From IMG/VR virus record IMGVR_UViG_3300033150_002389: a stretch of 56,517 bases of DNA; one strand, given 5' to 3'. A program made the translations under genes and the position numbers. Of this stretch, positions 15,661 to 51,445 are shown piece by piece. Source of the DNA: a virus. Every line of letters starts with the position of its first letter. Position 1 is the stretch's first letter. The notes beneath the pieces were generated by a model. That model was not told the origin of the DNA, made no database searches, and saw only the letters and a list, made by a program, of their open reading frames with translations.

Positions 15661-16800
15661 ATGGCAGATCCCGAAAAACAGGACGCTACCCCCAAGGGCG
15701 CGGACAACGAGGATCTCACAGAAGAAGAAAAGCAGCAGCTGGAGAGTCAAGGCCGAGAGAAGGCCGCAGACGTGCGTCTGAGCGCTCTTGACCAGATTGC
15801 AGCCAATGTCGACCGTCAAAGAGTTGAAGAGGACGGAATGAAACTGGACATTGAAGAGCCTGCCCAGGAGGAACCAGAAGGGAACGAAACGGACCAGGCG
15901 GGGGAGGAGACTTCGGGGGAGCACGCGATCGACGAGGCTGAGGCTGCAAAGAAAGAGAAAGAGCAACAGGAGCTAGAGCGGTACGAAGAAGAGGTTACCC
16001 TTGTTATTGACGGGACCGAACAAAAAGTGCCATTGAGCAAGGTGAAGGAGGCCGGGATAAGGACGCTCCAGAAGGAGTCAGCTGCGGATAAACGCCTCGA
16101 AGAGGCATCACGGCTCAAAAAGCAGGCCGAAGAGTTGCTAGAGGAAGCGACGAAAAAAGCCGCCGAGGCACCCACAAAGACGGATGGGTCACCCGACGGC
16201 AAGACCCCGGAAGAGCGCGATGCCGAGTTCAATGAAAAGAAGCGCGCCTGGATACAGGCTATCCAGTACGGAGACGAAGACGAGGCAGCCGCTGCCATAG
16301 ACGAGATCATCGCGGCCGGACGCGGCACTACCCCCGCTATCACGCCCGAGATGATTCAGGAAGAGGTGCAGAAGGCCCTTGAGCAGCGAGAAGAGCAGGC
16401 TAAAGAGCAGGCTGCCGAAGTGATTCGTCAAAAGTTCTTTCAACCCGCGGAAAGTGGAGGCTTCCAGGACCTCGGGGAGAACCCCTACCTGATGGCGGAG
16501 GTTACCCGGATTGTCAATGAGAAACTGGCCGCCGGCGAACCCAATGTATGGGAAACGTACGCCGCAGCGGGCGCAGAGGTCAGAAAAGCCAGGGAAGAGG
16601 CCGTCAAACCCAAGCCCCCCCCTAAACCTAAAGTCGCGGACATGAAAGAAAAAGAAGAGAAGAAGAAGGGCATTGACGAGCCAAAACCCGTCAGTGCAAA
16701 ACAAGAAACCACTACCCCTTCGGACCAGGAGAAAACGGAAGAGCAGGCCCGCGCGGAGGCCGTGCAAGAAATCATGAAGGTCCGAGGGCAAACCAGATAG
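15661..16800 (+). CDS. scaffolding protein (putative)
   Basis: highly acidic Glu/Lys/Ala-rich helical protein between portal and capsid genes. Confidence 0.5.
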   Translation: MADPEKQDATPKGADNEDLTEEEKQQLESQGREKAADVRLSALDQIAANVDRQRVEEDGMKLDIEEPAQEEPEGNETDQAGEETSGEHAIDEAEAAKKEKEQQELERYEEEVTLVIDGTEQKVPLSKVKEAGIRTLQKESAADKRLEEASRLKKQAEELLEEATKKAAEAPTKTDGSPDGKTPEERDAEFNEKKRAWIQAIQYGDEDEAAAAIDEIIAAGRGTTPAITPEMIQEEVQKALEQREEQAKEQAAEVIRQKFFQPAESGGFQDLGENPYLMAEVTRIVNEKLAAGEPNVWETYAAAGAEVRKAREEAVKPKPPPKPKVADMKEKEEKKKGIDEPKPVSAKQETTTPSDQEKTEEQARAEAVQEIMKVRGQTR

Positions 16801-16815
16801 AAAGGAGTAAGAAGT

Positions 16816-16920
16816 ATGCCTGGACAGTTATGGGCGGTGAATACCTTGGGTGGGTACATGTATTCACTCAACCTGAGTAAAAAGCTCAGGATGGCTGTTC
16901 AGCCTCTGATCAAGTTCCGT
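16816..16920 (+). CDS. major capsid protein, exon 1 (35 codons)
   Basis: AAGGAG 9 nt upstream of ATG; MPGQLWAVNTLGGYMYSLNLSKKLRMAVQPLIKFR then TAA at 16921. Confidence 0.6.
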
Positions 16921-17168
16921 TAAGAATGGCGGAAGTAAAACCCGCTCTGATTGACTTGGAAGCCCGGGCGCGGGCGACAAGGCGCAAGCAACGCCACCCT
17001 AAAGGAGGGCGTGTGGGCAGCGTGAACGACTGAGCGAGCGGGCACTGGAGAGAAAATACCAATATCCAGTGATGCGACAGTCTGAACCCCGGCATAACGC
17101 CTCAAGAGAAACCGGGGAGGCTACCCCAACAGGGCGTCCGCCCATGCGGTCATGAAAGTAACAGATTG
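16921..17168 (+). ncRNA. putative group I self-splicing intron (248 nt, no ORF)
   Basis: preceded by U, ends with G, length 2 mod 3; P1, P3, P7, P8 and P9-like helices found by eye in canonical order (details in findings). Confidence 0.6.
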
Positions 17169-18056
17169 CAGTTTTGCGATGTAAAAGATGCAACGCAACA
17201 GGGGCTGAAAAAAGGCGATACGTTCCACTGGAATGTATACAGTGACGTTTCGACACAGGGCACGAAGCTCACTGAAACGAAAACCATGCCCGAAACACAA
17301 TTCACGATCACCCAGGGAACCTTGACCATTGATGAGTATGGCAATAGCGTTCCCTACTCCGGGAAGCTTGATAATCTTTCCGAGCACCCGGTCACGGAGA
17401 TCATCAACAAGGTCCTGAAGAATGACGCAAAGAAGGCCTTTGACATAGCGGCACATGCCCAGTTCAATGCCTGCGTTCTTCGCGTCGTTCCGACGGCTGG
17501 GACGTCTACCACGGCGGTTACTCTGACCACGAACGGAACCGCGACCCTGACCAACGACGTTGCCCTGAAGAAGCAGCACATTGGGCTGGTAGTCGACACC
17601 ATGAAGGAGCGGAACATCCCGCCCTACATTGAGGACGACTACTACGTACTCGCATGGCCGTCCACGTTCCGGCAGCTCAAAACGGACCTTGAGGGCGTCT
17701 ATCAGTATGTGACGCAGGGCTTCCAGCTCATCATGAACGGTGAGATTGGCCGGTACGACAATTGCCGTTTCGTGGAGCAGACCCAGATTCCGAAGGGCGG
17801 AGCGGCGGATTCCACAACCTGGGACGCCGATACGAAAACGGCCGATGCCTGGAACAAGGCCAAGAGCGACTGGGCGTTCTTCTTTGGGGAGGATACGGTC
17901 GCCGAGGCAATTGCGGTTCCCGAGGAGATGCGCGGGAAAATCCCCACAGACTATGGCCGGTCGAAGGGGGTAGCGTGGTATTACCTCGGGGGCTTCGGGA
18001 TCGTCCACACAGCGGCCGCCCAGTGTCGAATCCTCAAATGGGATTCGGCATCATAG
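17169..18056 (+). CDS. major capsid protein, exon 2 (295 codons)
   Basis: ORF track 17166-18056; position after scaffold; splicing would give ...LIKFR-QFCDVKDAT... Confidence 0.6.
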   Translation, partial: QFCDVKDATQQGLKKGDTFHWNVYSDVSTQGTKLTETKTMPETQFTITQGTLTIDEYGNSVPYSGKLDNLSEHPVTEIINKVLKNDAKKAFDIAAHAQFNACVLRVVPTAGTSTTAVTLTTNGTATLTNDVALKKQHIGLVVDTMKERNIPPYIEDDYYVLAWPSTFRQLKTDLEGVYQYVTQGFQLIMNGEIGRYDNCRFVEQTQIPKGGAADSTTWDADTKTADAWNKAKSDWAFFFGEDTVAEAIAVPEEMRGKIPTDYGRSKGVAWYYLGGFGIVHTAAAQCRILKWDSAS

Positions 18057-18074
18057 GAAGGGGGGTGAGGAAAT

Positions 18075-18467
18075 ATGCCAAGTTTCTACGACGACGCACA
18101 ATACGGCGTGAGGGAGAGGCTTTATCTCACCGCACACCAGGCGGAGAAGACGCTGGCCGGGGATAAAACTCTCGTGAAGAGGTTCTACCCCAAGGGTCCG
18201 ATCAAGATCTTGAAGTTTGGGATCCAGCACATCGCGACCCAGGGCGGTACCGAGGTAACAGTTAACCTCAAAAGGAATTCGTCAACGCTGGCTACAGTTG
18301 TTGCCTCCACGGATTCAGCACCGTGGACCATAGCCAGCAAGTCGCTCGACAAGAACTGCGACGCGGGCTCCTATCTCACCGTGGACAGCGCAGGTACCGT
18401 TGCGACAGGATCTATAATCTGTTTCATCGAGTACAGGCGGCGCTACAGCACTAAGTGGGACGTCTAG
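18075..18467 (+). CDS. 130-aa virion-associated protein, paralog 1 (decoration-protein candidate)
   Basis: GGGGGTGAGG SD; about 85 percent aa identity to the next gene. Confidence 0.55.
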   Translation: MPSFYDDAQYGVRERLYLTAHQAEKTLAGDKTLVKRFYPKGPIKILKFGIQHIATQGGTEVTVNLKRNSSTLATVVASTDSAPWTIASKSLDKNCDAGSYLTVDSAGTVATGSIICFIEYRRRYSTKWDV

Positions 18468-18499
18468 CGACGCCATATTCTAAAACTTCGTAAACGAAT

Positions 18500-18526
18500 G
18501 GGGGCTTTCAGGAGCCCCCTTCACTT
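18500..18526 (+). terminator. hairpin GGGGGCT-ttcagg-AGCCCCC followed by T-rich tract; candidate partial terminator
   Basis: perfect 7-bp stem read directly; weak U-tract. Confidence 0.35.
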
Positions 18527-18539
18527 AAAGGGGTGACTT

Positions 18540-18932
18540 ATGCCCTCATTTTATAGTGATGCACAGTATGGCGTTGTTGAGCGCCTTCACTTCCATGCCT
18601 ATCAGGATTCGGTCCTCATAAACGGTGACAACACCCTGGTGAAGAGGTTCTATCCCAAAGGCCCAATCAAGATTTTGAAATTCGGGATCCAGCACCGGGC
18701 AACGCAAGGTGGCACCGAGGTCACGGTCAACTTAAAGCGCAACTCTTCAACGCTCGCAACGGTAGTGGCTTCGACGGACTCGGCGCCCTGGACCATTGCG
18801 AGTAAGTCCATTGACAAGAATGTGGACGCAGGGAGCTATTTGACCATCGACAGCGCCGGTACCGTTGCCAGCGGAAGCATAATTTGCTTCATTGATTACA
18901 GGCGCAGATACAGCTCGAAGTGGGATACCTGA
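18540..18932 (+). CDS. 130-aa virion-associated protein, paralog 2
   Basis: tandem paralog; protein conserved while synonymous sites have diverged. Confidence 0.55.
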   Translation: MPSFYSDAQYGVVERLHFHAYQDSVLINGDNTLVKRFYPKGPIKILKFGIQHRATQGGTEVTVNLKRNSSTLATVVASTDSAPWTIASKSIDKNVDAGSYLTIDSAGTVASGSIICFIDYRRRYSSKWDT

Positions 18933-18955
18933 TCTGAAAGGGAGTTCTCTGTAAT

Positions 18956-19996
18956 ATGAAAATCGTCGAGATCGCGCGGCACTGTTGCATCAGAGTCCAA
19001 AAGCAAGCAATTCCGCTCATGGATAAGGGTTACGAGGTTCATTGCATCGCAAACAAGCCTCCAATGTTTGGCGACCGATATAAGACGCTTACCATCTACC
19101 AGCACAGGGCGCAGATGGAGGAGGCGATCAAGCTTCACGAGGATGCCGACATCTTCCACGCGCATAACGAGCCCTCGTGGTTCGTTACGATCATCAAGTC
19201 AATTTTCCCTGATAAGCCCGTTGTCCTTGATTGCCACGACAGCTTCCTTCTGAGGGTAGACCCGGATGCGCCTTACGACCCCGACAGACCTAAATGGAGC
19301 AAGGATGAGCGCGACAATATGGAGCTTGCGGATGCACTTGTCTTCGTCTCAGAGCCGATGGCGCAGATTGTCCGGGAGACCTACTGGCTAGAGCAACCTT
19401 ATGTAGTCCTCCCTTCGTATGTTCCAGAGGAGTTTTACAGGGTGGACGCCTGGAAGCTGCTCGGAGGAGTCTGCATGGAAGGAAGGGTTGATCTCCCCCA
19501 GGAAATCGAGCAGGGCAGGGAACACTGGTGCTTTTGGTATTGCGAATATACGGAGACCGCGCGGCAATTCCATGAGCGAGGAATCCCGTTCTATCTCTAC
19601 ACGCCTGGAGGGACGAAGGAGATACAGGAAACATACGGCCAGACAGCAACCTGGAAGGGATCGTATCCATTTGATCGGCTAATTCGTCAGATAGGCCGGC
19701 ATGAATACGGGTTGTGCGGGAATATCAGGCCTCACCCTGCCTGGCAGGCCGCTATGCCCAATAAGCTGTTTGAATACCTCGCCGCTGGCATACCCGTCAT
19801 CGCCCTAAATGCGAAGCACCCGGGCCAGTTCATTGAAGAGCACGGTTTCGGTATGGCGGTAGAAAACATGGGCCAGGTGAAAGAGCGCTGGATGGAGCAC
19901 CGGGATTTTAGGAAGAACATCGCTAGGCGCTCCAGAGACTGGGCTATGGAACGCCATATAGACAAACTCGAAGCGCTTTACAGGGAGCTTGTCTAA
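18956..19996 (+). CDS. GT-B fold glycosyltransferase (GT1/GT4-like)
   Basis: C-terminal PNKLFEYLAAGIPVIALNAKHPGQFIEEHGFG matches the E-x7-E family motif. Confidence 0.6.
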   Translation: MKIVEIARHCCIRVQKQAIPLMDKGYEVHCIANKPPMFGDRYKTLTIYQHRAQMEEAIKLHEDADIFHAHNEPSWFVTIIKSIFPDKPVVLDCHDSFLLRVDPDAPYDPDRPKWSKDERDNMELADALVFVSEPMAQIVRETYWLEQPYVVLPSYVPEEFYRVDAWKLLGGVCMEGRVDLPQEIEQGREHWCFWYCEYTETARQFHERGIPFYLYTPGGTKEIQETYGQTATWKGSYPFDRLIRQIGRHEYGLCGNIRPHPAWQAAMPNKLFEYLAAGIPVIALNAKHPGQFIEEHGFGMAVENMGQVKERWMEHRDFRKNIARRSRDWAMERHIDKLEALYRELV

Positions 19997-20619
19997 TGGG
20001 GCAGCATCCCTTGCAGCCAAAACGTACCCCAAGAGATGTCTGTTACTGGGACCTATTCGCGAAGACATGCGTCAATCGAGACACGTCTCATGTCTCATTC
20101 AATTCTCAGAAGGCCCGCACGATTTCGCATTACCTGCTGCGCTACTCTGTGGAAAACCTGAAGATACTGGAAATTGGCCTAGGCCGAGCCCTTATCGCTG
20201 GGACGTTGAAGAACCTCTGCTGGCAGTTCAATTATGTGGGTACGGACCTTTCTCACCGATTTTGTGACTGGGGAAAAAAGGCCTTTGGCCTGACGACCCT
20301 TCAGGCGCGGATAGATCGCCTGCCCTTTAGGGATGGGCTTTTTGATCACATACTTCTCTTCGACGTCCTCGAGCACGTGGACCCTGCAATCAGGAAGGTT
20401 GCCTACAGGGAAATAGGCAGAGTACTCAAGCTTCGTGAAGCCTATGTATTTATCAACAACCCTTGCGGCGGGCACTCCGGGCACCGGTCCTTTGATTGGG
20501 GATTTACCCAAACCGATATTGGCCTTATGGCCGATGCGCTTGGGGCGCTGATAAAGGACCTGCACCTTTACGAGTCCTCCCCTGGGGCGCTGTCTCAATT
20601 CGTGGTGCTTGCGAGGTAA
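19996..20619 (+). CDS. class I SAM-dependent methyltransferase
   Basis: motif I-like ILEIGLGRALIAG and motif II-like FDHILLFDVLEHV. Confidence 0.6.
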   Translation: MGQHPLQPKRTPRDVCYWDLFAKTCVNRDTSHVSFNSQKARTISHYLLRYSVENLKILEIGLGRALIAGTLKNLCWQFNYVGTDLSHRFCDWGKKAFGLTTLQARIDRLPFRDGLFDHILLFDVLEHVDPAIRKVAYREIGRVLKLREAYVFINNPCGGHSGHRSFDWGFTQTDIGLMADALGALIKDLHLYESSPGALSQFVVLAR

Positions 20620-20625
20620 GGGACG

Positions 20626-21546
20626 ATGAAGGCGCTATTACACTACCCTAAATGGGGGAATCGCTGGGCTCCGTACATTGAAACGGAACTCGGGTGCTTC
20701 TACGACCTCACTGTAACGGACTCCCTTGATGGCGAAACTCTCGGCGCCCAATCACAAGATGCGGATCTCCTTATCAGCATGTGGTGCAATGAGGCAACCT
20801 ATTTTTGGAGCCACTACTTCCCGGACAAGAAAATTATCAGCTACCTCCGGCGATATGAGCTCTGGACCCCCAATTTGATAGGCTCGATCAACTTTGATGC
20901 AGTAGATGCCATGATTTTTGTGAGTGAATATTACCGCTCCACATTCAATGATTTGCTGAAGGAAAACGCCCCACGTCGCCAATACGTCATCTACAACGGG
21001 GTTGATGTCAATGCAATTCCTTTCAGGCAAGAGACCCCAAAGAGCAAGAAAATAGCCTTTGTCTGCGCGGTAAGGGACGTGAAGAACTTTCCGCTTGCGT
21101 TCCAGATTCTGCTCAGTTTGCCGGAGGATTACACCATACACAATATTTGCTTCTCCGGTGATCCCCTACTCGTGCCCCAGCTTCTCTCCTATCGGGAGGT
21201 CTTGGGTCTGCAAGAGAGGTTTCGCTTTGAGGGCCGCGTAGAGCCTGACAAGGTGTATGACTGGTTGAGCGACAAAGGTTTTATTCTTTCAACGTCTATC
21301 AACGAAGGCAACCCCAACAACGTCATCGAGGCGATGGCAATGGGGATCAAGCCCGTAATTCATGCGTGGCCTGGGGCTACGGACCAGTTCGCTACGGAGT
21401 GGGTATTCAAAACGGTAGATGACGCGGTTAAGATGATTACCAACTCCGATTACGAGCCGGAACGTTACCGTAAATGGGTGGAAGATCACTACAGCCTCGA
21501 TAATTTCAGGAGAATCCACAAGGTCATAGAGGATGTCTGGCAATAG
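20626..21546 (+). CDS. GT-B fold glycosyltransferase (GT1/GT4-like)
   Basis: STSINEGNPNNVIEAMAMGIKPVI motif. Confidence 0.55.
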   Translation: MKALLHYPKWGNRWAPYIETELGCFYDLTVTDSLDGETLGAQSQDADLLISMWCNEATYFWSHYFPDKKIISYLRRYELWTPNLIGSINFDAVDAMIFVSEYYRSTFNDLLKENAPRRQYVIYNGVDVNAIPFRQETPKSKKIAFVCAVRDVKNFPLAFQILLSLPEDYTIHNICFSGDPLLVPQLLSYREVLGLQERFRFEGRVEPDKVYDWLSDKGFILSTSINEGNPNNVIEAMAMGIKPVIHAWPGATDQFATEWVFKTVDDAVKMITNSDYEPERYRKWVEDHYSLDNFRRIHKVIEDVWQ

Positions 21547-22239
21547 GTGAGGCTCATGCCACATACAATCTCAGTATCTTTAGGCCCGGAGTGGATCAAA
21601 AAGGCCATAGTGGTCAGTCATGAGCGGTCAGGGACACACTTTTTGATGAACACCCTAGCCGACAGTTTTCAATATGTCTCATATCCGTGGATTAACATGG
21701 ACATAGACCAGCCAATAAATTGGTGGGCGGCGGATAATCTGCTCTCGTTTCTGATGTCTATGAAAGGCGAGCCAGTCCTTAACATCGTAAAATCTCACCA
21801 TTCAGTAGAGTTTTTCCTCCCCGTGCTTGAGGAGGTTCTGGAAGAATTTCATCTCTTCTACATATACCGCGAACCTCAGGCCGTGATGGAAAGTTTGTGC
21901 AGGCACCTCAATGCCATCCCGTGGAACGCAGGACCGAAAGTGGAGAGCGGCGCTGCTTTGGCTGCTACTGAGCCCTCTGGTTCCCTTTTGAGATACCAGG
22001 CACGGCAGTACCCGAATATGCGGGAGCGCCTCTTAGCGCATCAAAAAGGCTGGAAAGAGGGTATTCCCGAGCACCTGAGAGGACAGATAATCTATGTGTC
22101 ATTCGAGGACCTGCGGGACCGCTTTGAGGCAACGGTGCGTTTCATCGGGCGACAGTTAAAAAGGGCCGTGCCCAAAGTAATAATCAAGCCAAGCCGGGAG
22201 GACAGGGTCGTTACTCCGGACGGCGTCTGGCTTCAATAA
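21547..22239 (+). CDS. sulfotransferase-fold protein (putative PAPS-dependent)
   Basis: 5'-PSB-like VVSHERSGTHFL and 3'-PB-like YREPQAVMES motifs. Confidence 0.45.
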   Translation: MRLMPHTISVSLGPEWIKKAIVVSHERSGTHFLMNTLADSFQYVSYPWINMDIDQPINWWAADNLLSFLMSMKGEPVLNIVKSHHSVEFFLPVLEEVLEEFHLFYIYREPQAVMESLCRHLNAIPWNAGPKVESGAALAATEPSGSLLRYQARQYPNMRERLLAHQKGWKEGIPEHLRGQIIYVSFEDLRDRFEATVRFIGRQLKRAVPKVIIKPSREDRVVTPDGVWLQ

Positions 22240-22257
22240 GAAGAAAGGAGACGAATC

Positions 22258-22455
22258 ATGGCAGATAAAGACAGCTTCAAGCATGTCGAGAACTCTGGAG
22301 TCAGTCAGCGGGATCTTGACAGAGGGTTCACGGATGCGTTGGTCACAGACGAGGAGCAGGGCCGGCGCGTCTACCCTGGAGGCTATGTCGGGGAGGACCC
22401 GGAAGAAATGCCAGCAGAAGGCTTTTTGGGGAGGGCTAAAGGATGGGAACGTTAA
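22258..22455 (+). CDS. hypothetical small protein
   Basis: ORF track. Confidence 0.3.
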   Translation: MADKDSFKHVENSGVSQRDLDRGFTDALVTDEEQGRRVYPGGYVGEDPEEMPAEGFLGRAKGWER

Positions 22456-22823
22456 ACAAATCAAGGCCATACGCGACGGTTTACGGCCAAGCGGGGCACG
22501 CCTATGAACAGGACGGCAAACTCTTTGACCATCATGGGAACGAAATAGGCGGCCCGACACCGGTTGGATCTCCCGGGCCGGTGGTTGAGCAGCGAGAACC
22601 GGCCAATGAGGCGGTAGCGCCTGCGCCTGAGGAACCACAGCTCAACGAATTGGATGCCGTCATTGAGGAGGCCAATGCTCAGGTGCCGGCACACGAGCTC
22701 ACTCGTAAAGAGATCATGGAAAAGCTTGATGCTCTTGACATCGCTTACGACAGGCGGGCCAGGAGGTCGGTCCTCCTTCGCAAACTACTTGAGGCTGAGG
22801 CAGATCAATTCAAGGAAGCATAG
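22443..22823 (+). CDS. hypothetical protein with Rho_N/SAP-like C-terminus
   Basis: HELTRKEIMEKLDALDIAYDRRARRSVLLRKL. Confidence 0.4.
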   Translation: MGTLNKSRPYATVYGQAGHAYEQDGKLFDHHGNEIGGPTPVGSPGPVVEQREPANEAVAPAPEEPQLNELDAVIEEANAQVPAHELTRKEIMEKLDALDIAYDRRARRSVLLRKLLEAEADQFKEA

Positions 22824-24311
22824 ATGCTTGATATCTTTAAGCCCCAGAACGTAAGAGCCCTTGAGGTCAAGTATGAGCTCGTGCCCTATACCAAAGGCGT
22901 GGTCCTTGACCTTGGCTGCGGCCCCTGGAAGACCTATCCCCACTTCATAGGCATAGACCTATGTCAGAACTGGCCTCCTCATATTCCGTGGAGGCCGGAT
23001 ATTGTGGCCGACTGCAGAAGCCTTTCCATGTTCGCTGGCCAGTCTGTGGATGCAGTTTTTTCGTCTCACCTCCTCAATGAGTTGGATGACCGGGCTGCCG
23101 TGCTCAAGGAGTGGTGGAGGGTGATAAAGCCGGGAGGACATCTCGTTCTCTACTTGCCTTATGGCGACCTCAGCGAGAAGGGCGTTGTCCATAGCATGGA
23201 AGCTATCCCTGGGGGATGGGATCTGGTTGTCAACGAAGTCAAGCCAGACCATAACTCGTTCCTGCAGGTCTACAGGAAGCGAAGCGATAAGGCCAAGCGC
23301 TACCCCTACCGGGATCTAAAGCCCGAGAAAATGTGCGCAGTGGTACGCTACGGTGGCGCCGGGGACATGATCCAGACATCAAGCGTTCTGCCAGAGCTCA
23401 AGAAACAGGGATACCACGTTACACTTTACACCTCAGAGGGGGGATACGAGGTCATAAAAGCGGACCCTCACGTTGACGAGTTCGTGGTCCAGCAAAGGGA
23501 GCAGGTGCCGAATAGGGAGCTTGGCGAATACTGGGGCGTGCTCAAAGGCAAATATACGAAATTCGTAAACCTCAGCGAGTCCGTGGAGGGCTCCCTCCTG
23601 GCTATGGAGGGAAGGACCATATTTGCGTGGCCACACGGAGCCCGGCATAAGGTCCTCAACTTCAACTACCTTGAAATCATGCACGACATTGCTGAAGTGC
23701 CCTTCCAAATTCACACAAGGTTCTACGCAACGAAGCAGGAAATAAAGTGGGCAAAGAGGCAGCGCAAAATGCCCTATAATCTACTGTGGGTTTTATCTGG
23801 CAGCTCGGTTCACAAAGCCTGGCCCTACATGGACCAGATCATTGCAAGGCTCCTGATTGAGCGAAACGACGTGGCCATAGTCCTCTCAGGCGACGAGCTA
23901 TCCCAAATGCTGGAAACTGGCTGGGAAAACGAGCCGAGGGTGATAAAGACCTCTGGCAAATGGTCTATGAGGCAGACTATGGCCTTTGGATGCCACGCCG
24001 CCGATCTGGTCATCGGACCGGAAACCGGAGTGCTCAACGCAGTTAGCATGCTTGACATACCGAAAATCATTTGCCTGAGTCACAGCTCAGTCGAAAACCT
24101 CACGAGAGACTGGGTCAACACGATAAGTTTAACCCCGGAGGGATGTACTTGTTACCCCTGCCACAGAATGCAGCACGGCTTTACCCACTGCTCAAGGGAT
24201 GAGGAGACAGGCGTCGCAGAGTGCCAAGCGAAGATCACCCCGGAAGCCGTGTGGGACGCAATTGAAAGGAGCTTTAAATGGCATCGTCCGGCTCTGCAGA
24301 TTATACGGTAA
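22824..24311 (+). CDS. bifunctional SAM methyltransferase / GT9 (heptosyltransferase-like) glycosyltransferase
   Basis: N-terminal VLDLGCGPWKT and LKPGGHLVL; C-terminal GSSVHKAWP and CHAADLVIGPETGVLNAV GT9-like motifs. Confidence 0.55.
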   Translation: MLDIFKPQNVRALEVKYELVPYTKGVVLDLGCGPWKTYPHFIGIDLCQNWPPHIPWRPDIVADCRSLSMFAGQSVDAVFSSHLLNELDDRAAVLKEWWRVIKPGGHLVLYLPYGDLSEKGVVHSMEAIPGGWDLVVNEVKPDHNSFLQVYRKRSDKAKRYPYRDLKPEKMCAVVRYGGAGDMIQTSSVLPELKKQGYHVTLYTSEGGYEVIKADPHVDEFVVQQREQVPNRELGEYWGVLKGKYTKFVNLSESVEGSLLAMEGRTIFAWPHGARHKVLNFNYLEIMHDIAEVPFQIHTRFYATKQEIKWAKRQRKMPYNLLWVLSGSSVHKAWPYMDQIIARLLIERNDVAIVLSGDELSQMLETGWENEPRVIKTSGKWSMRQTMAFGCHAADLVIGPETGVLNAVSMLDIPKIICLSHSSVENLTRDWVNTISLTPEGCTCYPCHRMQHGFTHCSRDEETGVAECQAKITPEAVWDAIERSFKWHRPALQIIR

Positions 24312-25219
24312 CCGCCAGTCAACTTATCCAAGACGCGCTTGAAGAGCTCGGGGTGGTTGGTGCAGGGCAAACCGTATCGGCGGAAGACTCGGCAACTGCG
24401 TTGCGCGCCCTGAATCTCCTTGTCAAGCAGTGGATGGGTCCCGGGAGCCCTGTCACGCCGGGTCTCAAAATGTGGAAACGGCGGCAACTCACTTTGGACC
24501 TAACATCTACCGACAAGTATGCCCTGCAAATTCGACGCCTAGCCTTCACCTCGGGGGGCACGACGGCCATTGCGGTAGGGGACACCATTGCTGGTGCAAC
24601 CTCCAGCGCAACTGCAAAAGTCATGGCGGTAGAGGTGACATCTGGCAGCTGGGCTGGTGGCGATGCGGCCGGCGAGCTCATAATTGAGGGCCAATCCGGG
24701 ACCTTTCAATCAGAAAATCTGAACGTTGGAGCAAGCTCCAACCTTGCGACAATATCCGGGAACAGCGAACAGTACGGGCCACCAACGGAAATCATGGACC
24801 CCCTAAGGCGTACCTCTGATGGCGAAGATACTCCCATGGATATCATATCCCAAGCTGAATACATGGGAATTGGCGATAAGGACGCAAGCGGCACCCCGAC
24901 TAAGATTTACTACGAAAAAAGGATTGACGAGCTGAGGATCTATCTCAACGCCACTCCGAGCGTCACTACAGACAGCATTGTGTTCGTGGCTCTACTTCCG
25001 ATAGAGGATTTTGATAGCACTAAGGACAATCCTGACTTTACACGTGAATGGCACAGAACGCTGAAGTGGAACCTGGCCAAGGAGCTACTCGCAAAGTTCC
25101 CGAGTAGCAAGGACAGGGCCGCAGTAATCATTGCGCACGCCAACGAATCCTTGGGTATAGCCAATATGTTTGAACCGGAGAACTCGGACGTCTACTTTGA
25201 GCCGGACAAAGACTTATGA
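24278..25219 (+). CDS. virion structural protein (head-tail adaptor or tail tube candidate)
   Basis: position in late operon. Confidence 0.4.
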   Translation: MASSGSADYTVTASQLIQDALEELGVVGAGQTVSAEDSATALRALNLLVKQWMGPGSPVTPGLKMWKRRQLTLDLTSTDKYALQIRRLAFTSGGTTAIAVGDTIAGATSSATAKVMAVEVTSGSWAGGDAAGELIIEGQSGTFQSENLNVGASSNLATISGNSEQYGPPTEIMDPLRRTSDGEDTPMDIISQAEYMGIGDKDASGTPTKIYYEKRIDELRIYLNATPSVTTDSIVFVALLPIEDFDSTKDNPDFTREWHRTLKWNLAKELLAKFPSSKDRAAVIIAHANESLGIANMFEPENSDVYFEPDKDL

Positions 25220-26610
25220 ACTTGCCACTTTTACACGAACTGCCAGGCGAAGGCGTTTATCCCATCAATCTGTTCTGGATGCCAGAACTTGACGACGGAC
25301 GTCCCGGACTGATGGGGACCCCGGGCCTCACGCTCTTTAGAGTGATCGACAGCGGGGGCGGAGAGATCCGCGGCATGTGGGATATGGACGGGTACCTCTA
25401 TATCGTCTGCAAGTCCTCCGTATACCGGTACATAGACGGCACGCTGACAACATGCACCGGGTCGCTGCTAACCTCAAGTGGCCGGGTCTCAATGGTGGAC
25501 AACGGGACACAGCTGATGATCATCGACGGCACCTATGGCTACTATGTTACCGGAACCACAGTTACCCAAATTACAGATGCCGACTTCCCCACACCTTCAT
25601 CCCTTGCCTTCCAGGACGGTTACGGCGTCGTCACGCAGGATGGGACCGGACGAATCTATATATCAGCCCTCAATGACTTTTCCACGTGGGACGCCCTGGA
25701 TTATTCCACCGCAGACGGAGAGCCTGATGATGCATTGGCGGTTATTTCCGATCACCGGGAGCTCTGGGTGTTTGGCGAAGAAAGCATCGAGCCCTACTAC
25801 AATTCCGGTAACGCGGATTTTCCCTTCGAGCGAATTTCCGGCGGCTATCAAACAAAAGGGATTGCTGCCGCAAAATCGTTAACTGCAGGCGACAACACCC
25901 TCTTTTGGCTATCCAATCACCGGCAGGTTTTGAGGTCAACTGGCCTGGGGTCTGCACCCGAGATCGTGTCTACCCGGCAGCTTGACAAGAAATTTGCAGC
26001 TTACAATACCGTCTCCGACGCCTTCGGCTTCTGCCTCGATACGGTCGGCGGCACTTGGTATGTGCTTGCCTTTCCAACCGAAAACGTCACCTGGGCCTAC
26101 AATACTGCCACCAAGCGCTGGCATCAATGGGCAAGCTATCCTATCACCGGAGATACCAATATTCGTCATCGAGCGAACTGTTACTGCTACCATGCGGGAA
26201 ACCACCTCATTGGAGACTATGATAACGGCAGAATCTATGAGGTGGATCCGTCCAGCTACACTGACTATGGAAATGCCATAAAATCCCAGGTGATCTTGCC
26301 CACCGTCACGAGAGATGGTAGGCAGATTTACCACAACCGGCTTGAGGTAGAATTCAAGGCAGGCGTCGGGCTCGCTACCGGGCAAGGCAGTGATCCCAAA
26401 GCTGTGCTGGATTGGTCCGACAATGGCATGAGGTCCTGGTCCAACGAGCTCTGGCGCAGTATCGGAAAGATCGGCGAGTATACCCGGCGCGTCACCTGGC
26501 ACCGCTTGGGTATGGCGAGGCGCAGGAACTACCGCCTCACGATAACAGATCCTGTTGAGAGGGTCATCTATAACCCCGCCGTCTTGGACCTCAATGTTGG
26601 TGGATACTGA
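25216..26610 (+). CDS. virion structural protein (tail hub candidate, similar size to P22 gp10)
   Basis: 464 aa, Gly/Thr/Tyr-rich beta-type composition; position. Confidence 0.4.
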   Translation: MNLPLLHELPGEGVYPINLFWMPELDDGRPGLMGTPGLTLFRVIDSGGGEIRGMWDMDGYLYIVCKSSVYRYIDGTLTTCTGSLLTSSGRVSMVDNGTQLMIIDGTYGYYVTGTTVTQITDADFPTPSSLAFQDGYGVVTQDGTGRIYISALNDFSTWDALDYSTADGEPDDALAVISDHRELWVFGEESIEPYYNSGNADFPFERISGGYQTKGIAAAKSLTAGDNTLFWLSNHRQVLRSTGLGSAPEIVSTRQLDKKFAAYNTVSDAFGFCLDTVGGTWYVLAFPTENVTWAYNTATKRWHQWASYPITGDTNIRHRANCYCYHAGNHLIGDYDNGRIYEVDPSSYTDYGNAIKSQVILPTVTRDGRQIYHNRLEVEFKAGVGLATGQGSDPKAVLDWSDNGMRSWSNELWRSIGKIGEYTRRVTWHRLGMARRRNYRLTITDPVERVIYNPAVLDLNVGGY

Positions 26611-31242: not shown

Positions 31243-31244
31243 AA

Positions 31245-43175: not shown

Positions 43176-44396
43176 TTAGTTATCGCTTTCGGAGTGCCTA
43201 AATTTCTTTGCCACTTTTTTGCCACCCCTAGCATCGGAATAGATGGCCCTGAGGTCGTCTCCTTCCTCCCAGTAGTAGCGGTCAAATGCCTTGGTAGTGC
43301 TCCTCATCGAGCCATAGCGGATCTCCTCCGGGGTGCGGTATTTTCTGAGAGCCCTGGTGGTTGAGTGGGTAGTGCCCCCGTAGAGGTCCACTCCCTGGAT
43401 TCCGAGCTTGGCACAGGCCCGCTTCCACCACTTGTAAAAATGTTTCTCGCCGAATTGCCTCCCATTCTTATGGCGGAAGAAATAGGCGTCAGGATCTATG
43501 CAAGGGGGTAGGGCCCCCAAGATCTCCACGTCTTCGTCAATGAGATACACGATTTTGGACCTATTCTCCTTGGGGTGCCGTATCAGGATCTCTCTTGCCT
43601 TCAGGTTGATGTCCCCTTCCCGGATATTGCGCCATTCCTCGGGCCGCACGTTAAAGTAGGTGGTCATCCATTTGATGCCCAGCCAGGTCTTGTAGGGGGC
43701 CCACCCCTTCAGCGTATCCAAGATACCGAATTGGTCTGCCTTCGTAACAGTCTTTCGCCGGCGAAGCTCAAACTGGACCTTCGGGAACTTGGGCATTACC
43801 GAGATCTCATCATTATCGTAAAGCCACTTGAAGAACTGCTTAAGTGTCTGAATATAATTGAATTTGCTCTTATTGCTGACGTTATACTGGGTGAGAAAAA
43901 ACTGGAAGTCTTTCAGGCGCAGGCGTTTTACGCTGACAGGGCCAAAAACTCGAATCGCCTTCCAAATATGGTCTTCAAGGGCCCGATAGGTGTTTGGGCT
44001 GATGCCGTCCGGCCTGATCTCCGCCTCTCGGAGGCGGAGCCACTCATTGGCTAGATTTTCAAACCCAAGGGGATTATCAGCCCGATATTCCCTGGGGTCG
44101 AACGTTCCCTCATCCTCCTTGAACCTGAGGCCAGTGAGGCATTTTTGAGCGGCCTCGTAGCTCCTGAAACGCCGTGTGACCCCCCTGAAGTAGATCCGAA
44201 ACCGCCTGCTGGCCCTTTGCTCTGGATGGTTCGGGCAGAAGAGTCCCCTCCGACCATCATCTTTAAACCTGCCCCCGCATAAGGGGCACTTTTCATCAGA
44301 ATAGATTCCCCCTTTCATGCAATCGCCCCCAACCCCAGATTTGGCTGATACGGGGCCGATCTTACGTTGGTAAGGGGTAGATGTCAAGGAGGCCAT
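43176..44396 (-). CDS. int: tyrosine recombinase / phage integrase
   Basis: C-terminal HSTTRAL (HxxR) and AFDRYY catalytic Tyr region; adjacent to tRNA-like att sequence. Confidence 0.7.
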   Translation of the reverse strand: MASLTSTPYQRKIGPVSAKSGVGGDCMKGGIYSDEKCPLCGGRFKDDGRRGLFCPNHPEQRASRRFRIYFRGVTRRFRSYEAAQKCLTGLRFKEDEGTFDPREYRADNPLGFENLANEWLRLREAEIRPDGISPNTYRALEDHIWKAIRVFGPVSVKRLRLKDFQFFLTQYNVSNKSKFNYIQTLKQFFKWLYDNDEISVMPKFPKVQFELRRRKTVTKADQFGILDTLKGWAPYKTWLGIKWMTTYFNVRPEEWRNIREGDINLKAREILIRHPKENRSKIVYLIDEDVEILGALPPCIDPDAYFFRHKNGRQFGEKHFYKWWKRACAKLGIQGVDLYGGTTHSTTRALRKYRTPEEIRYGSMRSTTKAFDRYYWEEGDDLRAIYSDARGGKKVAKKFRHSESDN

Positions 44397-51404: not shown

Positions 51405-51445
51405 TACGCCTCCTTTCAAAGCTATTAACCCCTGGGGTTAATCTT

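What the first reader, a model, noticed from the sequence alone, without database searches (positions are those of the whole stretch)
18956..24311. Phage-encoded glycan-modification cluster: three glycosyltransferases, two methyltransferases and a sulfotransferase-fold enzyme
Six consecutive plus-strand genes between the capsid paralogs and the tail genes carry recognisable motifs for two GT-B glycosyltransferases, a SAM methyltransferase, a sulfotransferase-fold protein with PAPS-binding-like motifs, and a methyltransferase fused to a GT9-like glycosyltransferase. All are soluble-type enzymes with no GtrABC-like membrane components. Together they could build a methylated, possibly sulfated glycan. 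Likely targets are virion proteins, perhaps the adjacent 130-aa paralogs, or a host surface polymer.
Basis: partly seen in the sequence, partly recalled or inferred. Interest (0 to 1): 0.85.

Follow-up and report, generated by a model that had tools for sequence, protein, structure and literature searches.

The report
Phage capsid-module glycan-building gene island
An uncultured temperate phage carries, inside its head-gene operon, five soluble enzymes (three sugar-adding, two methyl-adding and one sulfate-adding domain) that most likely decorate a capsid surface protein. They sit in a variable slot next to a sugar-adding enzyme found in every sampled relative whose contig reaches that far.

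Summary
Coordinates 18956-24311 carry five enzyme genes: a GT4 glycosyltransferase, a SAM methyltransferase, a second GT4, a sulfotransferase, and a methyltransferase fused to a heptosyltransferase-fold (GT9-like) domain. Two small non-enzyme ORFs lie among them. All are soluble and tightly packed in the late head operon.

Three things were not in the finding:
- The GT9-like domain is a core gene of a large uncultured podophage lineage. It has an invariant four-cysteine finger and always lies between the capsid/cement genes and the head-tail adaptor. It was present in 46 of 46 capsid-selected relatives and in more than 593 IMG/VR loci.
- The space upstream of it is a variable island of sugar-tailoring enzymes. 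Relatives carry GT4::sulfotransferase and MT::GT4 fusion proteins.
- The "130-aa paralogs" are jelly-roll capsid cement proteins. Their family co-occurs perfectly, and adjacently, with the first GT4, whose nearest solved relatives are Gtf3-type protein O-glycan glucosyltransferases. This two-gene module is scattered across the capsid phylogeny.

Best reading: cytoplasmic glycosylation of capsid surface proteins with a methylated, sulfated glycan. The acceptor and the chemistry are inferred, not shown. It is a new variant of phage virion glycosylation, so far demonstrated only in mycobacteriophages. The capsid gene also carries a 248-nt group-I-like intron.

The parts
16816..16920 (+). Major capsid protein, exon 1 (35 aa, MPGQLW...LIKFR)
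   Evidence: Matches the N-termini of the uninterrupted capsid proteins of L001 and L002.
16921..17168 (+). 248-nt insertion splitting the capsid gene; probable group-I-type intron (context, not part of the glycan cluster)
   Evidence: Exon 1 and exon 2 are in different frames. A predicted P1 hairpin places a U.G pair at the 5' junction, and the last base is G. The same site is split in L071, L008, L048 and L042. Rfam Intron_gpI hits lie inside the L042 insertion and elsewhere in L008 and L071. There is no Rfam hit in the window itself.
17169..18056 (+). Major capsid protein, exon 2
   Evidence: phrog_1357 major head protein 1.3e-22; Pfam Phage_capsid_3.
18075..18467 (+). Capsid cement/decoration protein, paralogue A (130 aa); candidate glycan acceptor
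   Evidence: 84% identical to paralogue B. The fold evidence comes from the model of paralogue B, the first row of alignment A4, which also holds A. It hits the family profile at 2.7e-66.
18540..18932 (+). Capsid cement/decoration protein, paralogue B (130 aa); candidate glycan acceptor
18956..19996 (+). GT4a: GT-B glycosyltransferase, Gtf3-like
   Evidence: Pfam Glyco_transf_4 6.8e-13. A 7-sequence profile best hits PDB 4w6q, 3qkw/3rhz and 9hu9 (the last named 'Glucosyltransferase 3'). Homologues carry PF26337 Gtf3_C. It occurs in exactly the loci that hold the cement family, and starts 170 nt or less after the cement gene.
19996..20619 (+). Stand-alone class I SAM methyltransferase
   Evidence: Methyltransf_11 8.7e-13 and Methyltransf_25 3.1e-11. 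It overlaps the stop codon of GT4a by 1 nt. The equivalent gene is fused to GT4b in L009.
20626..21546 (+). GT4b: GT-B glycosyltransferase with an E-x7-E motif
   Evidence: Glycos_transf_1 7.5e-9; phrog_2170 1.7e-15. The E-x7-E motif is read directly from the sequence (NEGNPNNVIEAM). The homologue in L042 is fused to a sulfotransferase domain.
21547..22239 (+). PAPS-type sulfotransferase (the start may be the ATG at 21556)
   Evidence: Invariant SHERSGTHFLMN, KSH and R...S motifs; profile against SULT1C2 E=1.7e-10.
22258..22455 (+). 65-aa ORF of unknown function
   Evidence: Called as a gene on the near-identical contig. An analogous 66-aa ORF is present in L001.
22443..22823 (+). 126-aa protein; its C-terminal helical motif recurs just upstream of the GT9-like gene in relatives
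   Evidence: PHROG 'Arc-like repressor' families match residues 66-121 (6e-7). Short tblastn matches lie immediately upstream of the fusion gene in L019, L028, L037, L056, L068, L077, L078 and L084.
22824..23315 (+). N-terminal SAM methyltransferase domain of the fusion protein
   Evidence: Methyltransf_11 1e-10. G31, G33 and D45 are invariant. The profile hits phosphoethanolamine N-methyltransferases.
23316..24311 (+). GT9-like (heptosyltransferase-fold) domain with a Cys4 finger (codons 443-467, nt 24150-24224): the lineage-wide core enzyme
   Evidence: fold. (invariant R175, G177, G180, D181, G398, T401, G402, C443, C446, C456, C467). (conserved position). (motifs kept in GT9-only proteins). 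(363 clusters at E<=1e-30).
24278..25219 (+). Head-tail adaptor (downstream boundary of the slot)
   Evidence: phrog_12985 2.8e-22 and phrog_637 adaptor. The positional equivalents in L123, L174 and L175 are Pfam SU10_adaptor.
25216..26610 (+). Head-closure / Phage_stabilise protein
   Evidence: phrog_578 2.5e-99; PF11134 on the near-identical contig.

Best explanation
This is a capsid-glycosylation island.

The five enzymes are made from the late head operon together with the capsid and cement proteins. They are soluble, so they must act in the cytoplasm on a soluble acceptor, one sugar at a time. They would draw on host nucleotide sugars, SAM and PAPS. No lipid carrier, flippase or oligosaccharyltransferase is involved.

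Proposed order of events:
- The Gtf3-like GT4a, which always travels with this cement-protein family, glycosylates the cement protein or extends a first sugar on it.
- GT4b extends the chain.
- The stand-alone methyltransferase and the sulfotransferase cap it with O-methyl and O-sulfate groups.
- The lineage-wide GT9-like enzyme, here fused to its own methyltransferase, adds and methylates a heptose-like sugar on a head component shared by all relatives. That component could be the capsid protein or whichever cement protein is present.

The result would be a strain-variable, negatively charged glycan coat on the capsid surface.

Shown here:
- domain identities and intact catalytic motifs;
- solubility;
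- position in the operon;
- conservation of the GT9-like anchor;
- variability of the island;
- gene fusions between its members in relatives;
- the cement fold;
- cement-GT4a co-occurrence.

Inferred:
- the acceptor;
- the sugars;
- the order of steps;
- that methyl and sulfate groups go onto sugar rather than onto protein.
For: (1) Enzyme identities.

(2) Late structural-operon context, no membrane segments, and no excess of promoter-like or terminator-like sites.

(3) The GT9-like gene has a fixed position.
- It lies between capsid/cement and adaptor in essentially all 80 loci fetched by the fusion protein.
- It is present in 46 of 46 loci fetched by the capsid protein that have at least 3 kb downstream.
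- 37 of the 60 loci with a match carry a GT9-only form that keeps RYGxxGD, GPETGVLN, LSHSS and all four cysteines.

(4) The slot upstream is a variable island of glycan-tailoring enzymes.
- L042: GT4a, GT2, MT, GT4::Sulfotransfer_1.
- L009: GT4a, MT::GT4, MocA oxidoreductase, hexapeptide acyltransferase.
- L113: GT4, MT, PIG-L deacetylase, hexapeptide transferase, MocA, GT, sulfotransferase, cupin.
- L007: TylF and FkbM O-methyltransferases.
- L001: MptE/Maf-like, radical SAM-SPASM, sulfotransferase.

(5) The 130-aa proteins have the fold of capsid cement proteins.

(6) Cement-GT4a linkage.
- The cement family and GT4a occur in exactly the same 7 loci, always adjacent.
- The Fisher test on the 126 loci not selected by the cement protein gives p=1e-7.
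- 3 of 3 contigs selected only by the cement protein have GT4a next to it.
- Carriers rank 81st to 161st of 161 by capsid identity, and the closest capsid relative (L001, 83%) lacks the module.

(7) The best solved relatives of GT4a are 4w6q, 3qkw/3rhz and 9hu9. The last is named 'Glucosyltransferase 3'; from memory the others are also Gtf3/GtfC-type enzymes. Gtf3 extends the O-glycan of a serine-rich adhesin intracellularly (PMC5207161).

(8) Precedent: mycobacteriophages carry O-methyltransferase and glycosyltransferase genes inside the head-gene block (Corndog, PMC4351075). Glycans have been found on mycobacteriophage capsid and tail-tube subunits (Freeman et al. 2023, as summarised in PMC12619734).
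Against: - No experimental datum exists and there is no cultured representative. The fusion protein has no tblastn match in 50,697 cultured phage records and no PHROG family.
- The acceptor is inferred from gene linkage only.
- The universal GT9-like enzyme occurs with several unrelated cement types, and two loci (L012, L015) have only about 260 bp between capsid and GT9 genes. Its acceptor therefore cannot be this cement family specifically.
- A Thr/Ser-rich 16-residue capsid loop that I considered as an acceptor site is absent from several carriers, including L042.
- Co-occurrence counts are not phylogenetically independent events.
- The GT9 fold is best known from LPS core synthesis.
- The phage is temperate and has a beta-helix tailspike, so a host-polysaccharide target is conceivable.
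Confidence: 0.5

Rival explanations
1. Host envelope remodelling. The enzymes would modify the host's LPS core, O-antigen or capsule, as in lysogenic conversion or superinfection exclusion. Alternatively they would stop progeny sticking to cell debris. The GT9-like enzyme would act as a heptosyltransferase on LPS, and the GT4, MT and ST enzymes would alter a surface polysaccharide.
For: - The phage has an integrase-like gene at 43176-44396 and a beta-helix tailspike at 40308-42875, which implies a polysaccharide receptor.
- The closest solved folds of the GT9-like domain are the LPS enzymes WaaF and WaaC.
- GT4b's weak NCBIfam hits are to exopolysaccharide GT4 enzymes.
- Virome papers list heptosyltransferases as auxiliary metabolic genes.
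Against: - The genes are embedded, with overlaps, in the late head operon about 19 kb from the integrase. There is no excess of promoter-like sites.
- No membrane component is present: no GtrA/B, Wzx/Wzy, acyltransferase-3 or initiating phosphoglycosyltransferase, and no hydrophobic segment.
- The GT9-like gene keeps a fixed place between capsid and adaptor in every relative examined.
- The GT9-like family is sharply separate from cellular GT9 enzymes. Only 856 of 1.84 billion representatives match at E<=0.001.
- GT4a is linked to a particular cement protein rather than to any host marker.
Confidence: 0.2
2. Virion glycosylation, but of another structural protein: the beta-helix tailspike, portal, adaptor or ejection proteins. 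The cement linkage would then reflect only shared recombination boundaries.
For: - TibC/AAH-type heptosyltransferases, which share the GT9 fold and a Cys4 finger at a similar position, act on beta-helical passenger domains (PMC4358343).
- The phage has a beta-helix tailspike.
- The GT9-like gene directly abuts the adaptor gene in all loci.
Against: - TibC is a weaker structural match than WaaF or WaaC, and the N-terminal beta-barrel of TibC is absent.
- The perfect, adjacent cement-GT4a pairing is hard to explain by chance boundaries. It holds across capsid proteins only 38-41% identical to the window's, in L175 and L176.
Confidence: 0.15
3. DNA hypermodification. The glycosyltransferases would add sugars to modified bases of the phage genome, as in T4 and the phage gene clusters described by Pyle et al.
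For: Phage GT-B enzymes can glycosylate 5hmC DNA with unusual sugars including heptose-like ones (bioRxiv 10.1101/2023.12.21.572611).
Against: - Pfam scans of the other ORFs in the window found no cytosine-5 methyltransferase, TET/5mYOX, thymidylate-synthase-like hydroxymethylase or nucleotide kinase.
- Both methyltransferases are Methyltransf_11-type, not DNA methyltransferases.
- The cluster lies in the head module, not the replication module.
Confidence: 0.03

Closest known systems
Mycobacteriophage virion glycosylation (Cluster O Corndog gp35-38; the Che8-type systems of Freeman et al. 2023)
   Same: - Phage-encoded soluble glycosyltransferases, with an O-methyltransferase, are inserted among head genes.
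- They are expressed late and are not themselves virion components.
- Glycans are found on capsid and tail-tube subunits (PMC4351075; summary in PMC12619734).
   Different: - The phage type differs: SU10/PTXU04-like podophage architecture, host unknown.
- A lineage-wide GT9-like anchor enzyme with a Cys4 finger is present.
- A sulfotransferase is present.
- The probable acceptor is a jelly-roll cement protein rather than a C-terminal extension of the capsid or tail-tube subunit.
- The fusion protein has no tblastn match in cultured phages. Homology of the GT4s to the mycobacteriophage enzymes was not tested.
Bacterial autotransporter heptosyltransferases (BAHT: TibC, AAH)
   Same: - GT9/GT-B fold, with Foldseek hits to 4rap/4rb4 at about 1e-7.
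- Cytoplasmic O-glycosylation of a protein.
- A four-cysteine metal finger inserted in the C-lobe just before the last helix. TibC uses C339, C342, C358 and C370 of 406 residues (PMC4358343). Here the cysteines are C443, C446, C456 and C467 of 495.
   Different: - The cysteine spacing differs (CxxC-x9-C-x10-C here, CxxC-x15-C-x11-C in TibC).
- There is no N-terminal beta-barrel. That place is taken by a methyltransferase domain, or by nothing.
- WaaF and WaaC are closer structural matches.
- Metal binding, oligomeric state and donor sugar are untested.
LPS heptosyltransferases WaaC/WaaF (CAZy GT9, Pfam PF01075)
   Same: - Best structural matches: 1psw at 7e-13, 3tov at 2e-11, WaaC at 1e-8.
- The N-terminal 'GD' motif (invariant D181) and a GxETG motif sit where GT9 enzymes have their catalytic Asp and their D-T/S-G motif. 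This comparison is from memory of the WaaC sequence.
   Different: - This protein does not reach PF01075 at all, and TIGR02193 scores 16.8 bits against a 185-bit cut-off.
- The family is small and phage-borne.
- It has a Cys4 finger and is often fused to a methyltransferase.
- It has a fixed position in the head module.
Gtf3/GtfC glucosyltransferases of serine-rich-repeat adhesin glycosylation
   Same: - These are the best solved relatives of GT4a by profile: 4w6q at 9e-7, 3qkw/3rhz at 2.8e-4, and 9hu9 'Glucosyltransferase 3'.
- Homologues of GT4a carry Pfam Gtf3_C.
- Gtf3 is a soluble enzyme that extends an O-glycan on a protein intracellularly (PMC5207161).
   Different: - Similarity is limited to about 100 C-terminal residues at modest E-values.
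- No serine-rich repeat acceptor is present.
- No GtfA/GtfB initiating pair is recognisable.
Chlorovirus PBCV-1 capsid glycosylation (A064R and others)
   Same: From my own knowledge: virus-encoded cytoplasmic enzymes build the capsid glycan. A064R joins glycosyltransferase domains to a methyltransferase domain that O-methylates the sugar just added. This is the same logic as the MT-GT9 fusion here and the MT::GT4 fusion in L009.
   Different: It is a eukaryotic giant virus with N-linked glycans on a double-jelly-roll capsid protein. No homology was tested and no sulfation is known.
Jelly-roll capsid cement proteins of podophages (BPP-1, KHP40 gp16, Pam1, Carin1)
   Same: - The size is similar (about 130 aa).
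- The gene lies directly after the capsid gene, as in the cultured relatives PTXU04 and Vibrio phage D65.
   Different: - Sequence identity is 6-17%.
- The gene is tandemly duplicated here.
- It is physically linked to a glycosyltransferase gene.

Membership tests
GT4 / GT-B glycosyltransferases (Pfam Glyco_transf_4, Glycos_transf_1) | Score above the Pfam gathering threshold | tested here: met
   GT4a scores 49.4 bits against 28.5 for Glyco_transf_4. GT4b scores 35.8 against 26.4 for Glycos_transf_1 and 32.3 against 27 for Glyco_trans_1_4.
GT4 / GT-B glycosyltransferases | E-x7-E motif in the C-terminal domain | tested here: inconclusive
   Read from the sequences. GT4b has NEGNPNNVIEAM, a full E-x7-E. 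GT4a has only the second Glu (PNKLFEYLAAG).
PAPS-dependent sulfotransferases (Pfam Sulfotransfer_1 / Sulfotransfer_3) | Score above the Pfam gathering threshold | tested here: not met
   The window protein scores 24.0 bits against a 27-bit cut-off for Sulfotransfer_3 and gives no PF00685 hit. Its homologues are on record with PF00685/PF13469. The L042 fusion protein scores 72 bits for Sulfotransfer_1.
PAPS-dependent sulfotransferases | 5'-phosphosulfate-binding loop, 3'-phosphate-binding R...S motif, and catalytic Lys/His after strand 4 | tested here: met
   S24-HERSGTHFLMN-35, K82, H84, R108 and S116 are invariant in 34 homologues. The SGTH loop aligns with the KSGTHW loop of a solved sulfotransferase, and the profile hits SULT1C2 at 1.7e-10.
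PAPS-dependent sulfotransferases | Transfer of sulfate from PAPS to an acceptor | not testable with these tools
   Needs an enzyme assay.
GT9 heptosyltransferases (Pfam PF01075, TIGR02193) | Family HMM above threshold | tested here: not met
   There is no PF01075 hit at E<=0.1. TIGR02193 scores 16.8 bits against 185. A minority of homologues carry PF01075.
GT9 heptosyltransferases | GT-B fold closest to WaaC/WaaF | tested here: met
   Model pLDDT 93. Foldseek gives 1psw 7e-13, 3tov 2e-11 and WaaC 1e-8.
GT9 heptosyltransferases | ADP-heptose as donor | not testable with these tools
   No heptose-synthesis gene was found in the window. The donor would have to come from the host.
BAHT protein heptosyltransferases (TibC/AAH) | Four-cysteine iron finger in the C-lobe | tested here: inconclusive
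   Four cysteines are invariant and lie at an equivalent distance from the C-terminus, but their spacing differs from TibC (PMC4358343). No residue-level structural superposition was possible.
BAHT protein heptosyltransferases (TibC/AAH) | N-terminal beta-barrel domain | tested here: not met
   The N-terminus is a class I methyltransferase, or is absent in the GT9-only forms.
Phage virion-glycosylation systems (mycobacteriophage type) | Soluble GT and MT genes inside the structural operon | tested here: met
Phage virion-glycosylation systems (mycobacteriophage type) | Glycan detectable on virion proteins | not testable with these tools
   No cultured phage is available. Needs mass spectrometry.
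Lysogenic-conversion O-antigen modification (GtrABC, Oac) | Integral-membrane components, with the locus next to the integrase/attP | tested here: not met
   The maximum 19-residue hydropathy is 1.34 or less in all cluster proteins. The integrase-like gene lies about 19 kb away on the opposite strand.
Phage DNA sugar hypermodification clusters | Accompanying 5mC/5hmC- or 5hmU-generating enzymes | tested here: not met
   None was found among the ORFs scanned with Pfam.
Jelly-roll capsid cement/decoration proteins | Fold, and gene position directly after the capsid gene | tested here: met
   [not shown]
Group I introns (Rfam RF00028), for the capsid-gene insertion | Covariance-model match | tested here: not met
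   No hit in the window at gathering threshold or at E<=1. The insertion at the same site in L042 contains an RF00028 match at 34.7 bits, below the 50-bit gathering score.

The most novel reading that the evidence does not exclude
A very large clade of uncultured podophages routinely glycosylates its capsid surface. Every member would encode a phage-specific heptosyltransferase-fold enzyme with a metal finger, acting as a protein glycosyltransferase on head proteins. A recombination hot spot beside it would swap cassettes of cement protein plus tailoring enzymes: glycosyl-, methyl-, sulfo- and acyl-transferases, sugar oxidoreductases and radical SAM enzymes. Capsids would then carry hypervariable, sometimes sulfated, glycan coats, a viral counterpart of O-antigen diversity. 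To my knowledge this would include the first sulfated glycan on a phage particle.
Probability: 0.35. Interest if true: 0.85.

Novelty: new variant of a known kind. Interest (0 to 1): 0.62.

Why it matters
As far as my searches and knowledge go, phage virion glycosylation has been demonstrated only in mycobacteriophages, where it shields particles from antibodies.

If this cluster does what its anatomy suggests, three things follow:
- Capsid glycosylation would be widespread in environmental phages. The anchor enzyme alone forms 363 clusters at 50% identity and appears in more than 593 IMG/VR loci.
- It would be organised as a conserved enzyme plus a swappable cassette.
- It would include chemistry (sulfation, O-methylation, acylation) I have not seen reported on phage particles.

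Such coats could alter particle charge, stability, adhesion to mucus or polysaccharide matrices, and recognition by host defences or grazers.

The cement-protein/GT4a pairing gives a concrete enzyme-substrate pair that can be tested without a cultured phage. The soluble enzymes would also be candidate tools for protein glyco-engineering.

Tried and rejected
- Sequence search of the fusion protein and its GT domain against PDB. Only methyltransferases, a weak 3tov hit and spurious survivin zinc-finger matches came back. TibC was not recovered by sequence, so the Cys4 correspondence rests on position only.
- A capsid-loop acceptor. A 16-residue Thr/Ser-rich insertion (GGAADSTTW...) distinguishes the window, L001 and L002 from PTXU04 and D65. 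Its length varies from 19 to 37 residues among carriers, and it is short in L042, L012 and others. I rejected it as a marker.
- Host identification from genome collections. Only eight MAG contigs were found, with mutually inconsistent taxa (Thermotogae, Saccharibacteria, Rhodocyclaceae, Acidobacteriota and others). These are probably binned phage contigs, so the host remains unknown.
- A second sulfotransferase in the window, suggested by homologue P0224 being listed on a contig of identical length. tblastn shows only the known gene.
- DNA similarity to cultured phages. Only a 130-160-nt stretch of the capsid gene matches PTXU04-like and Vibrio phages.
- Promoter and terminator scan of 16700-25300. 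Counts were no higher than in shuffled sequence.
- GC content of the island genes is 0.50-0.54 against 0.527 for the window. This gives no clear signal of foreign origin.
- PDB search with GT4b alone gave no hit.
- Freeman et al. 2023 could not be read because it is not held. I cite it only through other papers.

Full report
**1. What is at the coordinates**

The window is a temperate-looking podophage genome of about 56.5 kb. Its recognisable genes are:
- DnaD-like loader, large terminase and SU10-type portal;
- scaffold and N4/PTXU04-type capsid protein;
- adaptor and head-closure protein;
- P22 gp7-like ejection protein;
- a 3015-aa polyvalent protein with InPase and RadC domains;
- a beta-helix tailspike;
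- on the minus strand, an integrase-like gene, helicase, DHH phosphoesterase and SbcCD-like genes.

Between the capsid gene and the adaptor gene lie, all on the plus strand:
- two 130-aa paralogues (18075-18467 and 18540-18932);
- a 346-aa protein (18956-19996);
- a 207-aa protein (19996-20619);
- a 306-aa protein (20626-21546);
- a 230-aa protein (21547-22239);
- a 65-aa ORF (22258-22455);
- a 126-aa protein (22443-22823);
- a 495-aa protein (22824-24311).

The junctions range from a 34-nt overlap to a 72-nt gap. None of the proteins has a transmembrane-like stretch. Promoter-like and terminator-like sites are no more frequent than in shuffled sequence.

**2. Checking the domain calls**

Pfam supports four of the calls above its gathering thresholds:
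- a GT4 N-domain in the 346-aa protein (49 bits);
- Methyltransf_11 in the 207-aa protein;
- Glycos_transf_1 in the 306-aa protein;
- Methyltransf_11 at the N-terminus of the 495-aa protein.

The sulfotransferase call was sub-threshold (24 bits against 27), so I tested it in three further ways.
- 271 homologues were found, most of them on record with PF00685/PF13469.
- In an alignment of 34, the segments SHERSGTHFLMN, K82-S-H84 and R108...S116 are invariant. These correspond to the 5'-phosphosulfate loop, the catalytic Lys/His and the 3'-phosphate motif of PAPS-dependent sulfotransferases.
- The profile hits human and other cytosolic sulfotransferases down to E=1.7e-10, with the SGTH loop aligned to their KSGTHW loop.

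The GT9 call had only a faint NCBIfam hit (E=0.003).
- An AlphaFold model built on 58 homologues is confident (pLDDT 93).
- Its C-terminal two-thirds match WaaF (7e-13), a GT9 structure (3tov, 2e-11), WaaC (1e-8) and the protein heptosyltransferase TibC (about 1e-7).
- JGI names many homologues 'ADP-heptose:LPS heptosyltransferase/SAM-dependent methyltransferase', and a few reach PF01075.
- Invariant residues include R175, G177, G180, D181 (the GT9 'GD' position), G398, T401, G402, and four cysteines: C443, C446, C456 and C467.

- There are five enzyme genes carrying six catalytic domains.
- Two small ORFs without enzyme motifs lie among them.
- The flanking genes are cement proteins and head-completion genes, not capsid paralogues and tail genes.

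**3. The GT9-like enzyme is the conserved anchor**

The fusion protein has more than 2800 relatives in the metagenome protein collection and more than 593 loci in IMG/VR. It has no tblastn match in 50,697 cultured phage records and no PHROG family.

In the 80 loci fetched by the fusion protein, the order capsid, GT9-like gene, adaptor, head closure is kept almost without exception. The capsid-to-GT9 distance ranges from 259 bp to 7.8 kb, with a median of 950 bp.

To remove the selection bias I fetched 80 loci by the capsid protein instead.
- All 46 loci with at least 3 kb downstream of the capsid gene have the GT9-like gene.
- In 37 of the 60 loci with a match, only residues 165-485 align. These are GT9-only proteins of about 320-380 aa. 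L123 is an example: capsid, 130 aa, 138 aa, 364-aa GT9-like, SU10_adaptor.
- The GT9-only forms keep RYGxxGD, GPETGVLN, LSHSS and all four cysteines.
- In L174 the methyltransferase and the GT9-like protein are separate adjacent genes.

An exhaustive HMMER search of 1.84 billion representatives with the GT9-like domain alone gives 363 clusters at E<=1e-30 and only 856 at E<=0.001. The family is therefore sharply separate in sequence from cellular GT9 enzymes. The cultured relatives PTXU04 and Vibrio phage D65 (about 50% capsid identity) have the capsid and a roughly 130-aa gene but no such enzyme.

**4. The slot upstream is a variable island of glycan-tailoring genes**

Loci with long capsid-to-GT9 distances carry the following:
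- L042: a GT4a homologue, a GT2, a methyltransferase, and a single 565-aa protein joining Glycos_transf_1 to Sulfotransfer_1 (E=5.7e-20).
- L009: a GT4a homologue, a 631-aa methyltransferase::GT4 fusion, a GFO/IDH/MocA oxidoreductase and a hexapeptide acyltransferase.
- L113: GT4, MT, PIG-L deacetylase, hexapeptide transferase, MocA oxidoreductase, GT, sulfotransferase, cupin.
- L007: TylF-type and FkbM-type O-methyltransferases.
- L043: a GT2.
- L001: an MptE/Maf-like protein, a radical SAM-SPASM enzyme and a sulfotransferase 61% identical to the window's.

Two points follow.
- The order GT4a, MT, GT4b, ST recurs, and neighbouring genes are fused in relatives. This is classical evidence that the enzymes act in one pathway, and that sulfation is coupled to glycosyl transfer.
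- Several islands add enzymes that remodel nucleotide sugars. That fits glycan synthesis and not, for example, protein methylation alone.

**5. The 130-aa paralogues are cement proteins linked to GT4a**

- This cement family occurs in exactly seven loci: the window, L009, L042, L113, L174, L175 and L176.
- GT4a homologues occur in exactly the same seven.
- In each, GT4a starts within 170 nt of the end of the cement gene.
- L174-L176 had been fetched only by the cement protein, so GT4a there is a fulfilled prediction, 3 of 3.
- Among the 126 loci not selected by the cement protein the table is 4/0/0/122, Fisher p=1e-7. This test ignores relatedness.

The module is patchy relative to the capsid phylogeny.
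- Carriers rank 81st, 104th, 105th, 132nd, 160th and 161st of 161 by capsid identity to the window.
- L175 and L176 have capsid proteins only 38-41% identical to the window's.
- The closest capsid relative (L001, 83%) has a different cement protein and no GT4a.

The cement gene and GT4a therefore move as a unit.

By profile, GT4a's best solved relatives are 4w6q, 3qkw/3rhz and 9hu9.
- 9hu9 is named 'Glucosyltransferase 3'.
- From memory, the others are Gtf3/GtfC of serine-rich-repeat adhesin glycosylation.
- GT4a homologues carry Pfam Gtf3_C.
- Gtf3 is a soluble enzyme that extends a protein-linked O-glycan intracellularly (PMC5207161).

**6. Mechanism proposed**

The enzymes are soluble and co-transcribed with head genes. 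They lack any lipid-carrier machinery. They are linked to a capsid-surface protein and to a lineage-wide enzyme wedged between the head genes.

The best-supported reading is sequential cytoplasmic glycosylation of capsid surface proteins:
- GT4a acts on the cement protein.
- GT4b extends the chain.
- The methyltransferase and sulfotransferase cap it.
- The GT9-like enzyme, with its fused methyltransferase, adds and methylates a heptose-like sugar on a head component common to all relatives.

The Cys4 finger lies where TibC/AAH protein heptosyltransferases have their iron finger, which in TibC is needed for oligomerisation and substrate recognition (PMC4358343). The spacing differs, the TibC beta-barrel is missing, and WaaF and WaaC are closer structural matches. 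I therefore treat this as a resemblance, not as membership.

Precedents are the Corndog-type O-methyltransferase and glycosyltransferase block among head genes (PMC4351075) and the glycans demonstrated on mycobacteriophage capsid and tail-tube subunits (Freeman et al. 2023, via PMC12619734). From my own knowledge, chlorovirus A064R, a glycosyltransferase-methyltransferase fusion acting on the capsid glycan, is a further precedent.

**7. Rivals**

- Host envelope modification. This is conceivable, since the phage is temperate, has a beta-helix tailspike and carries an LPS-type fold. It fits poorly with the late-operon position, the absence of any membrane component, the invariant head-module location and the cement linkage.
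- Glycosylation of another virion protein, such as the tailspike or adaptor. This cannot be excluded for the GT9-like enzyme.
- DNA glycosylation. This is unlikely. No base-hydroxymethylating or DNA-methylating enzyme was found, and the characterised clusters of that kind have them.

**8. Limits**

- There is no cultured member and no biochemical datum.
- The host is unknown. Only inconsistent MAG assignments were found.
- The acceptor of the universal enzyme is unresolved. It occurs with several cement types, and two loci have almost no space for a cement gene.
- A candidate capsid loop did not hold up.

**9. Novelty and score**

The kind of system, phage-encoded virion glycosylation, is known. 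Several features here are not described in what I could search:
- the architecture of conserved GT9-like anchor plus swappable island;
- the cement-protein/Gtf3-like module;
- the sulfotransferase and its fusion to a GT4;
- the scale in metagenomes.

I rate it a new variant of a known kind, with interest 0.62.

**10. Seen in passing**

The capsid gene is split after codon 35 by a 248-nt insertion (16921-17168).
- It has a predicted P1 helix with a U.G pair at the 5' junction and a terminal G.
- The same site is interrupted in four relatives by insertions of 233 to 706 nt. The L042 insertion contains a sub-threshold Rfam group I match.
- Clear group I introns lie elsewhere in the head genes of L008 and L071.

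Noticed in passing
window 16816-18056 (insertion 16921-17168): The major capsid gene is split after codon 35 by a 248-nt insertion, with the two exons in different frames. The insertion has a predicted P1 hairpin with a U.G pair at the 5' junction and ends in G, like a small ORF-less group I intron. Rfam finds nothing in the window.
   Followed up: partly
L071 8102-8334; L008 3777-4169; L048 5231-5907; L042 2229-2934: Relatives have insertions of 233 to 706 nt at the same KFR|QF codon junction of the capsid gene. The first 60-65 nt of the L071 and L008 insertions are 82-86% identical to the window's. Rfam Intron_gpI matches L042 2620-2862 (35 bits, inside the insertion), L008 4339-4623 (75 bits, a second site in the capsid gene) and L071 7750-7978 (49 bits, upstream of the capsid gene).
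   Followed up: partly
L009 2407-3081; L176 8344-8979: Homing-endonuclease-type ORFs (GIY-YIG in L009, HNH_3 in L176) sit between the capsid and cement genes of relatives. The head module of this lineage therefore looks like a hot spot for mobile introns and endonucleases.
   Followed up: no
window 31158-40205: A 3015-aa ORF has an inorganic-pyrophosphatase-like domain (InPase, E=1e-59) and a RadC-like JAB domain. The L001 counterpart is 4462 aa, with Eco57I-like methylase and SNF2/helicase domains. It looks like a polyvalent, probably injected, anti-defence protein.
   Followed up: no
window 18075-18467 and 18540-18932: The cement gene is tandemly duplicated (84% identity). Pairs of family members also share contigs elsewhere (P0243/P0258, P0254/P0262, P0256/P0260, P0249/P0250), so two cement paralogues per genome may be common in this sub-lineage.
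   Followed up: partly
window 22443-22823: A 126-aa protein has a C-terminal helical motif (ELTRKEIMEKLDALDIAYDRRARR...) that matches PHROG families annotated 'Arc-like repressor'. Short matches recur immediately upstream of the GT9-like gene in at least eight relatives. Its role is unknown.
   Followed up: partly
window 17900-17950 (capsid residues about 262-277): A 16-residue Thr/Ser/Asp-rich loop (GGAADSTTWDADTKTAD) is absent from the cultured relatives PTXU04 and Vibrio D65. Among metagenomic relatives the loop varies from 19 to 37 residues. It does not track the glycosylation genes.
   Followed up: yes
window 43176-44396 (-), 48878-52681 (-): An integrase-like gene scores below the Pfam threshold (23 bits against 27.1). 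An SbcC/SbcD-like pair (SMC_N and Metallophos) is also present. No tRNA or attachment site was sought, so the temperate lifestyle is only suggested.
   Followed up: no
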